Under the pieces are notes generated by a model. It had not been told where the DNA came from, did no database searches, and worked only from the letters and a program-made list of their open reading frames with translations. A DNA stretch of 64,000 nt. It comes from a virus. The stretch is taken from IMG/VR virus record IMGVR_UViG_3300045988_122518; one strand, written 5' to 3'. Shown here in pieces: positions 7,663 through 7,751 of the stretch. A program made the position numbers and the translations under genes. Numbering within the stretch: position 1 is the stretch's first letter; the number at the start of each line of letters is the position of its first letter.

Positions 7663-7751
7663 TGCCCCGTAGTGTAATGGTTAACACGGCGGTCTCTAAA
7701 ACCGTTTTCCCTTTGAAGGAGTCGTTCTGGGTTCGAATCCCAGCGGGGCTG
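7663..7751 (+). tRNA. amber suppressor tRNA (anticodon CUA), type II with ~21-nt variable arm
   Basis: D arm GTGT-AATGGTTA-ACAC; anticodon stem GCGGT/ACCGT with loop CTCTAAA giving anticodon CTA; long variable arm TTTCCCTTTGAAGGAGTCGTT; T arm CTGGG-TTCGAAT-CCCAG; acceptor (T)GCCCCG/CGGGGC(T); no encoded CCA. Confidence 0.65.

What the first reader, a model, noticed from the sequence alone, without database searches (positions are those of the whole stretch)
7663..7751. The suppressor tRNA is type II (21-nt variable arm), which is in tension with the Gln assignment from paralogue alignments
tRNA-Gln is a class I tRNA, but this CUA tRNA has a long variable arm, as in Ser, Leu and Tyr tRNAs. Its discriminator may be G, as in tRNA-Ser. 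SerRS and LeuRS do not read the anticodon, which makes such tRNAs easy evolutionary sources of suppressors. The amino acid actually inserted at TAG (Gln, Ser or other) is therefore unresolved. It could differ from the Gln inferred for well-studied recoded phages. This matters for any translation of this genome.
Basis: inference. Interest (0 to 1): 0.6.

Follow-up and report, generated by a model that had tools for sequence, protein, structure and literature searches.

The report
Suppressor tRNA with two anticodon arms
The "long variable arm" of this phage stop-codon-reading tRNA is not a serine/leucine/tyrosine-type arm but a copy of a glutamine anticodon arm, so one arm reads UAG while a second appears built to tell the cell's glutamine-charging enzyme what to load.

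Summary
Window 7663-7751 is a real CUA tRNA with a 21-nt variable region, discriminator G73 and a U1·U72 mismatch. The proposed Ser/Leu/Tyr identity is not supported. Three codon-level tests say TAG means Gln. TAG exchanges mainly with CAA/CAG in relatives. Gln codons become TAG about ten times more often than any other codon class. One TAG sits where 137 of 152 diverse lysozyme homologues have Gln. The tRNA body is class I, with a 4-bp D stem and an 8-nt D loop.

The "variable arm" is a hairpin with the loop CUUUGAA, a tRNA-Gln(UUG) anticodon loop, followed by a class-I-length variable loop. If the CUA arm is deleted in silico, ARAGORN calls a canonical tRNA-Gln(UUG). At least 32 distinct phage Sup-CTA tRNAs share this design: the stems covary and YUG is invariant. 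Long opal (UCA) suppressors carry a CCA (Trp) loop in the same place.

My best reading is that the second arm is a natural pseudo-anticodon for GlnRS. This is inferred, not shown.

The tRNA is followed directly by a theta (HDV-like) ribozyme. A sister phage has a class I Sup-CTA in the same cassette. I found no published description of this architecture.

The parts
7663..7751 (+). Amber-suppressor tRNA (anticodon CUA), 89 nt from position 1 to discriminator G73. Class I body plus an extra hairpin.
   Evidence: ARAGORN. Rfam RF00005 at 57.8 bits. Conserved in L003, L004, L131-L133, L135, L138 and L203.
7663..7669 (+). Acceptor stem, 5' strand (U1 G2 C3 C4 C5 C6 G7). U1 faces U72 (7750), giving an unpaired 1:72. 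G2:C71 is present.
   Evidence: Rfam alignment marks 1:72 as non-standard. In the family, 1:72 is UA 10, AU 2, GU 1 and mismatch 12 of 25. G2:C71 occurs in 24 of 25.
7744..7751 (+). Acceptor stem 3' strand (7744-7750) and discriminator G73 (7751).
   Evidence: In the family, N73 is G in 20 and A in 5 of 25.
7689..7705 (+). First anticodon arm: stem GCGGU/ACCGU, loop CUCUAAA, anticodon CUA at 7696-7698. This arm decodes UAG. Its sequence resembles a tRNA-Trp arm with C35U.
   Evidence: Every two-arm tRNA found by a scan anchored on the second arm has CUA here (16 of 16).
7707..7721 (+). The loop is identical to a genuine tRNA-Gln(UUG) anticodon loop.
   Evidence: Rfam's tRNA model aligns it as the anticodon arm when the first arm is withheld. 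Family table. Genuine Gln loops. Covariation of the inner 3 bp. Loop columns are U35' 25/25, G36' 25/25, Y34' 25/25, A37' 24/25.
7722..7726 (+). 5-nt linker UCGUU between the second arm and the T stem. It has the length of a class I variable loop, unlike the 1-2 nt found 3' of true class II variable stems.
   Evidence: Deleting 7689-7705 leaves a 73-nt sequence that ARAGORN calls tRNA-Gln(UUG).
7752..7752 (+). C74, the only encoded base of the CCA end. It lies immediately 5' of the predicted ribozyme cleavage site.
7753..7805 (+). Theta-type minimal HDV-like ribozyme: GGUGCU|AA|AAACAAA|ACC|U|CC|UCGC|GGU|AGCACU|GG|GUAAUG|CUAA|UUUGUUU. It is predicted to cut between 7752 and 7753 and release the tRNA 3' end.
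   Evidence: Rfam RF02682 at 26.1 bits, E 0.005, below the gathering score. Segment by segment it fits the published theta motif as printed in Kienbeck 2024 Supplementary Data 1. It is conserved 3' of both kinds of Sup tRNA in relatives.
53098..54399 (+). Example of a recoded late gene, an endolysin (Phage_lysozyme2 + Amidase_2) with 8 in-frame TAG codons. The TAG at codon 146 (53533-53535) sits at a nearly invariant Gln of the family.

Best explanation
This is a phage amber-suppressor tRNA that inserts glutamine at UAG. It is built as a class I tRNA-Gln carrying two anticodon arms in tandem.

- **First arm (7689-7705, anticodon CUA).** It occupies the canonical position and pairs with UAG on the ribosome.
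- **Second arm (7707-7721, loop CUUUGAA).** It occupies the variable region and presents a cognate glutamine anticodon (UUG, with U33 and A37 equivalents).
- **Acceptor end.** Together with a Gln-type acceptor end (unpaired U1·U72, G2:C71, G73) and G10:C25, I propose that the second arm acts as a pseudo-anticodon. It would give the host glutaminyl-tRNA synthetase the U35/G36 contacts that the real anticodon lost when G36 became A. In hosts without GlnRS, the partners would be the non-discriminating GluRS and GatCAB. Identity would thus be kept while decoding is changed.
- **3' end.** It is made by a theta (HDV-like) ribozyme that cuts after C74. CCA would then be completed enzymatically.

Shown here:
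- the anatomy;
- the Gln meaning of TAG;
- membership of a large covarying family;
- the parallel CCA (Trp) arm in UCA suppressors.

Inferred:
- that an aaRS reads the second arm;
- which enzyme does so;
- how the two arms are arranged in three dimensions.
For: **TAG = Gln**
- At window TAG sites, the alternative codons in relatives are Gln 14, Glu 7, Asp 4, Ala 4, Lys 3, Tyr 2, Thr 2, Ser 1, Arg 1.
- Window Gln codons are TAG in a relative at 6.7% of sites. The rates are 0.7% for Lys, 0.28% for Ser, 0.14% for Leu and 0 for Tyr.
- BLOSUM log-likelihoods are Q -86.2, E -94.3, S -113.7, Y -129.4, L -140.3, W -146.5.
- TAG codon 146 of the endolysin aligns with Q in 137 of 152 diverse homologues. 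A standard-code homologue has CAA/CAG at sites 139 and 146.

**Gln-type identity**
- U1·U72, G2:C71, G10:C25, C34, U35, A37 and G73 are present, compared with the published E. coli set.
- GlnRS accepts class II amber suppressors once 1:72 and 3:70 are changed (PMC9976931).

**The second arm is a Gln anticodon arm**
- 32 distinct long Sup-CTA tRNAs have a hairpin with YUG in the loop. Five heptamers recur: CUCUGAA, UUCUGAG, CUUUGAA, UUUUGAU, CUCUGAC. Four of them (all but UUCUGAG) are also found in genuine tRNA-Gln of the same loci.
- The inner stem pairs covary: CG 19 / GC 4 / UA 2, then CG 18 / GC 6 / UA 1. No shuffle of 500 reached the observed values.
- Controls: a YUG-centred hairpin occurs in 27 of 32 family members, 2 of 111 genuine Ser/Leu/Tyr tRNAs, 0 of 17 Ser/Leu-like Sup-CTA tRNAs and 4% of shuffles.
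- Rfam's tRNA model aligns the second arm as the anticodon arm.
- After deletion of the first arm, ARAGORN calls tRNA-Gln in 25 of 33, including the window.
- tRNAscan-SE called a member "Gln CTG pseudo" in Kienbeck's data.

**Generalisation**
- Long UCA suppressors with a Trp-type acceptor end (A1:U72, G73) carry CUCCAAA/GUCCAAA, the tRNA-Trp loop, in the same place in 14 of 16 cases.

**GlnRS-bound shape**
- In the complex, 32-38 and 33-37 pair and 34-36 splay out (PMC1483225). Hairpins such as GCCUU-CUG-AGGGC can form exactly that shape.

**Precedent**
Against: - There is no biochemical evidence that any synthetase touches the second arm.
- In a canonical L-shape a variable arm projects away from the face that GlnRS covers. 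The model therefore needs either side-by-side arms or a swap in which the second arm stacks on the D stem.
- The second stem is short, 3-4 bp here. The outer two pairs are mostly unpaired in the family.
- Position 38' is A, G or C, not the U38 of the E. coli identity set. 3:70 is C:G here, not G:C.
- Sister phages L134 and L136 manage with a class I Sup-CTA in the same cassette and keep the same TAG codons, so the second arm is not essential.
- The host is unknown, so the presence of GlnRS is unknown.
- My isotype HMMs rank the body Trp > His > Arg > Gln.
- For this single sequence, a YUG-centred hairpin with a stem of at least 4 bp arises in 2.7% of shuffles. The case rests on the family.
- Family members share ancestry, so counts of sequences overstate the number of independent events.
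Confidence: 0.6

Rival explanations
1. Evolutionary relic. A tRNA-Gln acquired an extra CUA hairpin between position 26 and its own anticodon arm. The old arm persists as a structural variable arm with no role in charging. GlnRS accepts the tRNA through U35 and the acceptor end alone, as with supE or su+7.
For: Deleting the first arm restores a canonical tRNA-Gln. The 5-nt tail after the second arm is a class I variable loop. Class I Sup-CTA tRNAs without a second arm serve sister phages. CUA suppressors are known GlnRS substrates (PMC9976931).
Against: A neutral relic should drift. Instead U35' and G36' are invariant, Y34' is 25/25 and A37' is 24/25, while the stem beneath covaries and acceptor stems differ completely. 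The same arrangement with the matching CCA triplet occurs in Trp-type UCA suppressors.
Confidence: 0.2
2. Dual decoder or conformational switch. Either arm can stack on the D stem, so the tRNA reads UAG with one conformer and CAA/CAG with the other. Alternatively, the UUG arm is the real anticodon arm.
For: Both arms are anticodon-arm-like. Rfam's tRNA model and tRNAscan-SE accept the second arm as the anticodon arm.
Against: The window has abundant in-frame TAG, and this is the only CUA tRNA in it. The first arm has the full 5-bp stem in the canonical position, while the second has 3-4 bp. Nothing requires a second Gln decoder.
Confidence: 0.1
3. Decoy for another host factor. The second arm mimics tRNA-Gln to engage anticodon-loop modification enzymes, or to absorb or evade an anticodon nuclease or other defence, rather than a synthetase.
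For: Only the mimicry itself. Phage tRNA clusters are often discussed as counter-defence (my own knowledge).
Against: The triplet tracks the amino acid needed for the recoding, Gln with CUA and Trp with UCA. This is what a charging determinant predicts and not what a defence decoy predicts.
Confidence: 0.07
4. This is a class II-derived suppressor charged by SerRS, LeuRS or TyrRS, so TAG means Ser, Leu or Tyr in this phage.
For: A 21-nt variable region, G73 and G2:C71 are part of the E. coli Ser set. Genuine Ser-like and Leu-like Sup-CTA tRNAs do exist in other phages (category B).
Against: TAG almost never exchanges with Ser, Leu or Tyr codons, and log-likelihoods are 27-54 units worse than for Gln. 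A family-invariant Gln site is TAG. The D arm is class I. The arm has a 5-nt 3' tail and a 7-nt anticodon-like loop. A73 is absent. Ser, Leu and Tyr HMM scores are 26-30 bits, against 42-48 bits for the window's own Ser and Tyr tRNAs.
Confidence: 0.02

Closest known systems
Phage-encoded Sup-CTA tRNAs of code-15 (TAG to Gln) gut phages, with theta ribozymes (Borges et al. preprint 10.1101/2021.08.26.457843; Peters et al. PMC9523058; Kienbeck et al. PMC10879173)
   Same: CUA anticodon. Large gut phage with in-frame TAG in structural and lysis genes. TAG behaves as Gln. No encoded CCA. Minimal HDV-like ribozyme abutting the 3' end. RNA ligase gene in the genome.
   Different: None of these papers mentions a long variable arm or a second anticodon-like arm (0 occurrences of "variable arm"). 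In Kienbeck's table a member is listed as "Gln CTG pseudo".
E. coli supE (tRNA-Gln CUA) and su+7 (tRNA-Trp CUA charged with Gln)
   Same: An amber suppressor charged by GlnRS through U35 and a Gln/Trp-type acceptor end with G73. The first arm here, GGUCUCUAAAACC, looks like a tRNA-Trp arm with C35U.
   Different: Those are ordinary 75-76-nt class I tRNAs with one anticodon arm. They are point mutants, not a dedicated architecture.
Class II amber suppressors converted to Gln identity (amber tRNA-Ser with 1:72 and 3:70 changed, cited in PMC9976931; su+3 tRNA-Tyr mischarging mutants, from memory)
   Same: They show that GlnRS tolerates a long extra arm and that a weakened 1:72 pair plus G73 directs Gln charging.
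   Different: In those tRNAs the extra arm is a Ser/Tyr-type arm without an anticodon-like loop, and the D arm is class II.
Engineered pseudo-anticodon V-arm tRNAs (Mukai 2020, PMC7590224)
   Same: A hairpin copying a cognate anticodon arm is placed in the variable region of an amber suppressor to recruit a synthetase's anticodon-binding domain. It enhanced aminoacylation.
   Different: That work was synthetic. It used an allo-tRNA chassis and HisRS fused to an extra anticodon-binding domain. Here the design is natural, widespread and presumably uses unmodified host GlnRS or TrpRS.
Bacterial class II tRNAs (Ser, Leu, Tyr) and nematode nev-tRNAs (from memory)
   Same: A variable region longer than 10 nt that forms a hairpin.
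   Different: Class II arms have 3-5-nt loops, 1-2 nt after the stem and a 3-bp D stem. Their arm, not an anticodon copy, is what SerRS or LeuRS uses. None of this holds here.

Membership tests
tRNA (general) | Cloverleaf with G18G19, a T-loop UUCRAAU, and 7/4/5/5-bp stems | tested here: met
   Rfam RF00005 at 57.8 bits (gathering score 29). ARAGORN call. All helices covary in the family.
tRNA-Gln identity set for E. coli GlnRS (PMC1483225) | Weak or openable 1:72 pair (U1-A72) | tested here: met
   U1·U72 mismatch. In the family this position is UA 10, AU 2, GU 1, mismatch 12 and never G:C. The exact U-A pair is not present in the window copy.
tRNA-Gln identity set for E. coli GlnRS (PMC1483225) | G2-C71 and G3-C70 | tested here: inconclusive
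   G2:C71 is present (24 of 25 in the family). 3:70 is C:G in the window. In the family it is CG 13 and GC 12.
tRNA-Gln identity set for E. coli GlnRS (PMC1483225) | G10 and discriminator G73 | tested here: met
   G10:C25 is present (24 of 25). G73 is at 7751 (family G 20, A 5).
tRNA-Gln identity set for E. coli GlnRS (PMC1483225) | Anticodon Y34, U35, G36, with A37 and U38 | tested here: inconclusive
   The first arm has C34, U35, A36 (not G), A37, A38. The second arm supplies U34', U35', G36', A37', A38'. Whether GlnRS reads the second arm cannot be tested here.
tRNA-Gln | Isotype-specific model scores it as Gln | tested here: inconclusive
   tRNAscan-SE is not available. Home-made anticodon-masked HMMs give Trp 40.3 and Gln 25.6 for the full sequence, and Trp 46.6, His 43.3, Arg 40.4, Gln 38.9 without the second arm. 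ARAGORN calls the molecule without its first arm tRNA-Gln(UUG).
Code-15 phage suppressor tRNA | In-frame TAG in phage genes that aligns with Gln | tested here: met
Theta-ribozyme-associated phage tRNA (Kienbeck 2024) | Minimal HDV-like motif whose cleavage site lies within 5 nt of the tRNA 3' end, with no encoded CCA | tested here: met
   RF02682 hit at 7753-7807, below the gathering score (26.1 against 44). It matches the published motif segment by segment. The cleavage site is 1 nt after G73.
Theta-ribozyme-associated phage tRNA (Kienbeck 2024) | Self-cleavage activity | not testable with these tools
   Needs an in vitro transcription and cleavage assay.
Class II tRNA-Ser | Long variable stem with 1-2 nt on its 3' side, 3-bp D stem with an enlarged D loop, C11:G24 | tested here: not met
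   A 3-4-bp stem with a 7-nt loop and a 5-nt 3' tail. A 4-bp D stem with an 8-nt loop. U11:A24. Compare the window's own tRNA-Ser.
Class II tRNA-Ser | G73 and G2:C71 | tested here: met
   Both are present. They are shared with the Gln and Trp sets, so they do not discriminate.
Class II tRNA-Ser | The decoded codon behaves as Ser | tested here: not met
   Ser is 1 of 38 partners. Log-likelihood is -113.7 against -86.2 for Gln.
Class II tRNA-Leu / tRNA-Tyr | Discriminator A73 and a class II D arm | tested here: not met
   G73 and a class I D arm. HMM scores are Tyr 30.5 and Leu 26.1, against 48.4 for the window's real tRNA-Tyr. Leu and Tyr are the worst fits to the TAG partner spectrum apart from Trp.
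tRNA-Trp | A1:U72, G73, anticodon CCA; codon behaves as Trp | tested here: not met
   U1·U72. U35 instead of C35. The second arm is UUG, not CCA. Trp log-likelihood is -146.5. The body and first arm do resemble tRNA-Trp.
tRNA-Pyl (ARAGORN's label) | 3-nt variable loop, small D loop without G18G19, atypical T loop, PylRS partner (from memory) | tested here: not met
   Canonical GG and UUCGAAU, and a 21-nt variable region. The label is only ARAGORN's name for any CUA anticodon.
Pseudo-anticodon V-arm tRNA (engineered, Mukai 2020) | The variable-region hairpin copies the cognate anticodon arm | tested here: met
Pseudo-anticodon V-arm tRNA (engineered, Mukai 2020) | The hairpin raises aminoacylation through the synthetase's anticodon-binding domain | not testable with these tools
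   Needs kinetics with GlnRS and second-arm mutants.

The most novel reading that the evidence does not exclude
Recoded phages have evolved a general way to uncouple tRNA identity from decoding. A natural tRNA carries two anticodon arms. The ribosome reads the first, a stop-codon anticodon (CUA or UCA). The anticodon-dependent class I synthetase (GlnRS or TrpRS) reads the second, the cognate sense anticodon (YUG or CCA). This may involve a swap of which arm stacks on the D stem. It would explain why phage stop-codon reassignments are to Gln and Trp, and how they achieve efficient charging by unmodified host enzymes.
Probability: 0.5. Interest if true: 0.9.

Novelty: new variant of a known kind. 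Interest (0 to 1): 0.8.

Why it matters
For this genome, TAG should be translated as Gln (code 15). The worry about Ser, Leu or Tyr can be dropped.

More broadly, the finding exposes an unrecognised architecture shared by many phage suppressor tRNAs. If the second arm is an identity element, it would be the first natural pseudo-anticodon on a tRNA. It would also give a mechanistic answer to an open question raised by Borges et al.: how host GlnRS and TrpRS are made to charge phage suppressors. And it would provide a ready-made design principle for genetic-code expansion and therapeutic suppressor tRNAs.

There is also a practical point for annotation. tRNA finders may call these genes Sup-CTA, "Gln-CTG pseudo" or nothing at all. 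That may contribute to the roughly 60% of recoded phages in which no suppressor tRNA is detected.

Tried and rejected
- **Cultured-phage relatives.** Megablast of 23 kb against cultured-phage records found no relatives, only a chance tRNA-Thr match.
- **D-arm argument.** I first thought the D arm GUGUAAUGGUUAACAC marked the tRNA as Gln-like. A genome scan showed that this exact D arm is mostly tRNA-His (64 of 72 tRNAs). I dropped the argument, and the resulting reference set is His-biased.
- **Nearest-neighbour and profile-HMM isotype classification.** These could not separate Gln from Trp, His or Arg. They only exclude class II types.
- **Q at all 8 TAG sites in P0001, and at 4 of 8 in P0002.** Rejected as circular. 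Those database proteins are code-15 translations of TAG, since the gene does not translate to the protein under table 11. I switched to codon-level comparison and to diverse homologues.
- **Rfam on whole relatives L134 and L136.** No HDV hit at E < 0.05, because E-values scale with the search space. Direct comparison showed that L134 has the same ribozyme.
- **ARAGORN's Pyl label.** Rejected on structure.
- **Similarity between the two arms of one tRNA** (a recent duplication). None was seen by eye.
- **Reverse order** (Gln anticodon first, CUA second). No tRNA-Gln longer than 79 nt was found among the tRNA-Gln genes listed from the loci.
- **Pfam scan of the ten largest TAG-free ORFs.** No aminoacyl-tRNA synthetase in the window. 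The scan was not exhaustive.
- **Literature.** The library does not hold most subscription-journal papers.
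Full report

Yes. ARAGORN reports a CUA tRNA at 7663-7752. Rfam's tRNA model matches 7663-7751 at 57.8 bits.

The cloverleaf reads as follows:
- Acceptor stem 7663-7669 / 7744-7750, with a U1·U72 mismatch that Rfam flags as non-standard.
- A 4-bp D stem (GUGU/ACAC) with the 8-nt loop AAUGGUUA.
- Anticodon arm 7689-7705, with CUA at 7696-7698.
- A 21-nt variable region, 7706-7726.
- T arm 7727-7743.
- Discriminator G73 at 7751.

No CCA is encoded, although the window's other long tRNAs, aligned, do encode it. The gene is conserved, with only one D-loop and one T-loop substitution, in at least eight related 160-200-kb phage contigs.

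**2. What does TAG mean in this phage?**

Reading through TAG raises ORF coverage from 69% to 85%. It yields long + strand genes with up to 8 in-frame TAGs. I tested the amino acid in three ways.

(a) Codon exchange with relatives, read from DNA and so independent of any database translation.
- At window TAG sites the alternative codons in relatives are Gln 14 (CAA 13, CAG 1), Glu 7, Asp 4, Ala 4, Lys 3, Tyr 2, Thr 2, Ser 1 and Arg 1.
- In the other direction, 6.7% of window Gln codons are TAG in some relative. The rates are 0.7% for Lys, 0.28% for Ser, 0.14% for Leu and 0 for Tyr.
- BLOSUM62 log-likelihoods of the partner spectrum are Q -86.2, E -94.3, K -106.2, S -113.7, Y -129.4, L -140.3 and W -146.5.
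- CAA needs two base changes from TAG, so its dominance is a signature of synonymy.

(b) A standard-code homologue of the endolysin (L130) has CAA/CAG at TAG sites 139 and 146.

(c) Among 266 diverse homologues of the Phage_lysozyme2 + Amidase_2 endolysin, TAG site 146 aligns with Q in 137 of 152. The pooled spectrum at all TAG sites (K .22, Q .20, E .12, D .11) resembles that of the protein's genuine Gln sites. It does not resemble its Ser, Tyr or Leu sites.

One caution applies. The closest database homologues (P0001, P0002) show Q at TAG sites only because they were translated with code 15. I did not use them.

**3. Is it a Ser/Leu/Tyr-type tRNA?**

No.
- Its D arm is class I. The window's own tRNA-Ser, Leu and Tyr have the class II D arm and compact variable stems with 1-2 nt after them.
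- A73, which Leu and Tyr need, is absent.
- Home-made anticodon-masked isotype HMMs give Ser 27.5, Leu 26.1 and Tyr 30.5 bits. Positive controls score 41.7 (window Ser) and 48.4 (window Tyr). Once the extra hairpin is removed, no class II type is in the top seven.
- The same HMMs cannot separate Gln from Trp, His or Arg. Trp scores best. The first arm, GGUCUCUAAAACC, is a tRNA-Trp arm with C35U, as in the classical su+7 suppressor that GlnRS charges (PMC9976931).
- Trp is excluded by the codon data.

The published E. coli Gln identity set is U1-A72, G2-C71, G3-C70, G10, Y34, U35, G36, A37, U38 and G73 (PMC1483225). Against it, the window tRNA has an open 1:72, G2:C71, G10, C34, U35, A37 and G73. 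It lacks G3:C70, G36 and U38.

**4. What is the "variable arm"?**

It is a hairpin at 7707-7721. Its stem is U·G, U:A, C:G, C:G. Its 7-nt loop CUUUGAA has UUG in the anticodon position, with U33- and A37-equivalents. Five nucleotides (UCGUU) follow before the T stem, which is the length of a class I variable loop.

- Rfam's tRNA model, given only 7700-7751, aligns this hairpin as the anticodon arm followed by a 4-nt variable loop.
- Deleting the 17-nt CUA arm in silico leaves a 73-nt sequence that ARAGORN calls tRNA-Gln(UUG).

A scan of viral contigs was anchored only on the CUA loop and the T loop. It returned 49 distinct long Sup-CTA tRNAs.
- 32 of them form one family with a class I D arm and a weak or mismatched 1:72 that is never G:C. 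N73 is G in 24 and A in 8. All 32 have a variable-region hairpin with YUG in its loop.
- Five loop heptamers recur: CUCUGAA, UUCUGAG, CUUUGAA, UUUUGAU and CUCUGAC. Four of them (all but UUCUGAG) also occur in genuine tRNA-Gln genes from the same loci.
- In a 25-sequence alignment, all five helices covary (0 of 500 shuffles reach the observed values).
- The three inner pairs of the second stem show compensatory changes: CG 19 / GC 4 / UA 2, CG 18 / GC 6 / UA 1, and GC 11 / UA 4 / CG 2.
- Above them the loop is fixed: Y34' 25/25, U35' 25/25, G36' 25/25, A37' 24/25.

Controls:
- A YUG-centred hairpin with at least 3 bp occurs in 27 of 32 family members.
- It occurs in 2 of 111 genuine Ser/Leu/Tyr tRNAs.
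- It occurs in 0 of 17 genuine Ser- or Leu-like Sup-CTA tRNAs.
- It occurs in 4% of shuffled variable regions.
- For the window sequence alone the shuffle frequency is 2.7%, so the argument rests on the family.

CUA conservation in that set was imposed by my pattern, so I ran a second scan anchored on the second arm. It returned 17 ordinary tRNA-Gln(CUG) genes and 16 two-arm tRNAs. In all 16 the first arm is CUA.

One family member appears in Kienbeck et al.'s Supplementary Data 1. There tRNAscan-SE called it "Gln CTG, pseudo", taking the second arm for the anticodon.

**5. Generalisation**

The analogous scan for long UCA (opal) suppressors found 16 distinct long (93-100 nt) tRNAs.
- 11 have the Trp-type acceptor end (A1:U72, G73).
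- In 14 of 16 the variable-region hairpin has CCA centred in its loop. The loop is CUCCAAA or GUCCAAA, the loop of 33 of 36 genuine tRNA-Trp genes.
- After deletion of the first arm, 9 of 18 are called tRNA-Trp(CCA).

The second-arm triplet therefore tracks the amino acid that the recoding requires.

**6. Context**

- Directly 3' of the tRNA (7753-7805) lies a minimal HDV-like ribozyme. Its Rfam score is below the gathering score (RF02682, 26.1 bits, E 0.005). It nevertheless fits the published theta-ribozyme motif segment by segment. The predicted cut after C74 (7752) explains the missing CCA.
- The window also encodes an RNA ligase (38835-40208). A DRB0094-family RNA ligase is reported as enriched in theta-ribozyme phages (PMC10879173); whether this ORF belongs to that family was not tested.
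- In sister phage L134 the 5' leader and the ribozyme are identical to the window's. The tRNA between them is a different, 72-nt class I Sup-CTA with U1·C72, G2:C71 and G73. L134 keeps TAG at 7 of 12 shared sites and has CAA at 2. The two suppressors are therefore interchangeable cassettes, which again argues that both insert Gln.

**7. How it most likely works**

Shown here:
- the anatomy;
- TAG = Gln;
- the family and its covariation;
- the Trp parallel.

Known from the literature:
- GlnRS depends strongly on U35 and G36, with losses of up to 10^5-fold.
- It accepts class II amber suppressors when 1:72 and 3:70 are altered.
- In its complex the anticodon stem is extended by 32-38 and 33-37 pairs. 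Many family hairpins (GCCUU-CUG-AGGGC) can form exactly this shape, leaving a CUG triloop.

Inferred: the second arm supplies GlnRS with the cognate anticodon while the CUA arm decodes UAG.

The main difficulty is geometry. A canonical variable arm points away from the face that GlnRS covers. The long 5-nt 3' tether and the near-native arm length suggest two possibilities: the arms lie side by side, or the second arm can replace the first in stacking on the D stem. I give about 0.9 to "inserts Gln", about 0.9 to "the arm is a Gln anticodon-arm copy under selection", and about 0.5-0.6 to "it is read by the synthetase".

**8. Rivals**

- Relic of an insertion into tRNA-Gln with no function (0.2). 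The invariant loop over covarying stems and the Trp parallel argue against it.
- Dual decoder or switch (0.1).
- Decoy for another factor (0.07).
- Ser, Leu or Tyr charging (0.02).

**9. Comparison and novelty**

This tRNA is a member of the known class of code-15 phage suppressor tRNAs with theta ribozymes. The two-arm architecture is not mentioned in the papers I could read on recoded phages or theta ribozymes. Nor is it mentioned in the tRNA identity review, and it did not turn up in searches for pseudo-, second-, tandem- or extra-anticodon terms. The closest concept is Mukai's synthetic pseudo-anticodon V arm. I therefore rate it a new variant of a known kind. One caveat applies: the searchable library omits most subscription-journal papers.

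**10. Dead ends**

See "tried and rejected": the D-arm argument, the biased reference set, the circular database translations and the E-value issue.

**11. Seen in passing**

The most notable item lies about 100 nt downstream, at 7859-7947. It is a mimic of the 23S rRNA GTPase-associated centre (the L11-binding region). The same motif occurs in at least 119 viral contigs, with a base pair that covaries through all four Watson-Crick types. It matches no Rfam family. L11 is needed for efficient RF1 action at UAG and for RelA activation (my own knowledge), so it may belong to the same translation-reprogramming module. I did not test this.

Noticed in passing
window 7859-7947 (+); also L136, L483, L495, L499, L539, L545 and about 119 viral contigs (L481-L5xx): A structured RNA that mimics the 23S rRNA GTPase-associated centre, the L11-binding region (GGANGUNGGC-UUAGAAGCAGCC-AUCNUUUAAAGA). 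It gives a weak Rfam LSU hit (15.9 bits, E 0.0055) and matches no Rfam family. In 70 unique phage copies, the pair GGA[N]GU: AUC[N]UUU is GC 26, AU 20, UA 20, CG 3 and mismatch 1. The H43-like closing pair is CG 59, AU 10, UA 1. In this phage it lies between the suppressor tRNA/ribozyme and tRNA-Tyr. It may be an L11 decoy affecting RF1 termination at UAG or RelA. That is speculation, and I found no literature on it.
   Followed up: partly
L262-L381 (e.g. L360, L371, L326, L350, L283): Long (93-100 nt) opal-suppressor (UCA) phage tRNAs with a Trp-type acceptor end and a second arm whose loop is the tRNA-Trp anticodon loop CUCCAAA/GUCCAAA.
   Followed up: yes
L134:733-935 versus window 7623-7841: The flanks are identical (5' leader and 3' theta ribozyme), but a different, class I 72-nt Sup-CTA tRNA lies between them. 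This is a precise swap of the suppressor tRNA cassette between sister phages.
   Followed up: partly
L144, L189, L197, L201, L204, L205, L224, L228, L248 (G73); L167, L173, L179, L244, L254, L260 (A73): Other phages carry genuine class II Sup-CTA tRNAs, Ser-like (G1:C72, G73, GAGYGG D loop) or Leu/Tyr-like (A73).
   Followed up: no
L404, L468, L433: Two-arm tRNA 3' halves (UAUAUCCCUCUGAAGGAGG plus T arm) preceded by ...AGAAAACCGU. About 45 nt of unrelated sequence lies where the CUA loop should be. This could be an insertion or intron inside the first arm. ARAGORN misses them.
   Followed up: no
window 6332-6415 (+) and 6527-6602 (+): tRNA-like sequences found by Rfam (35.1 and 24.5 bits) but not by ARAGORN. 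The first has good acceptor, D and T arms but 31 nt where the 17-nt anticodon arm should be.
   Followed up: no
window 23975-24103 (+); L134 15093-15221: RAGATH-33 RNA above the gathering score (123.3 and 126.8 bits), inside the second tRNA cluster.
   Followed up: no
window 30761-33256 (+) and 28283-29809 (+): A phage ORF with Major Vault Protein shoulder and repeat domains (PF11978 at 1.4e-21, PF17795). It lies next to a DUF2828/DUF7788 protein. This is unusual content for a phage.
   Followed up: no
window 38835-40208 (+): An RNA ligase (PF09414 plus a PHA02142 OB fold). An RNA ligase (DRB0094 family) is reported as strongly enriched in phages with theta ribozymes; family membership of this ORF was not checked.
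   Followed up: no
window-wide: In-frame TAG is concentrated in tail-fibre-like and other structural-type genes and in lysis genes (8933-21381, 53098-54399) and in HNH/GIY-YIG-type genes. Gyrase, DNA ligase, methylase and PhoH genes have none. This matches the late-gene recoding pattern described by Borges et al..
   Followed up: partly
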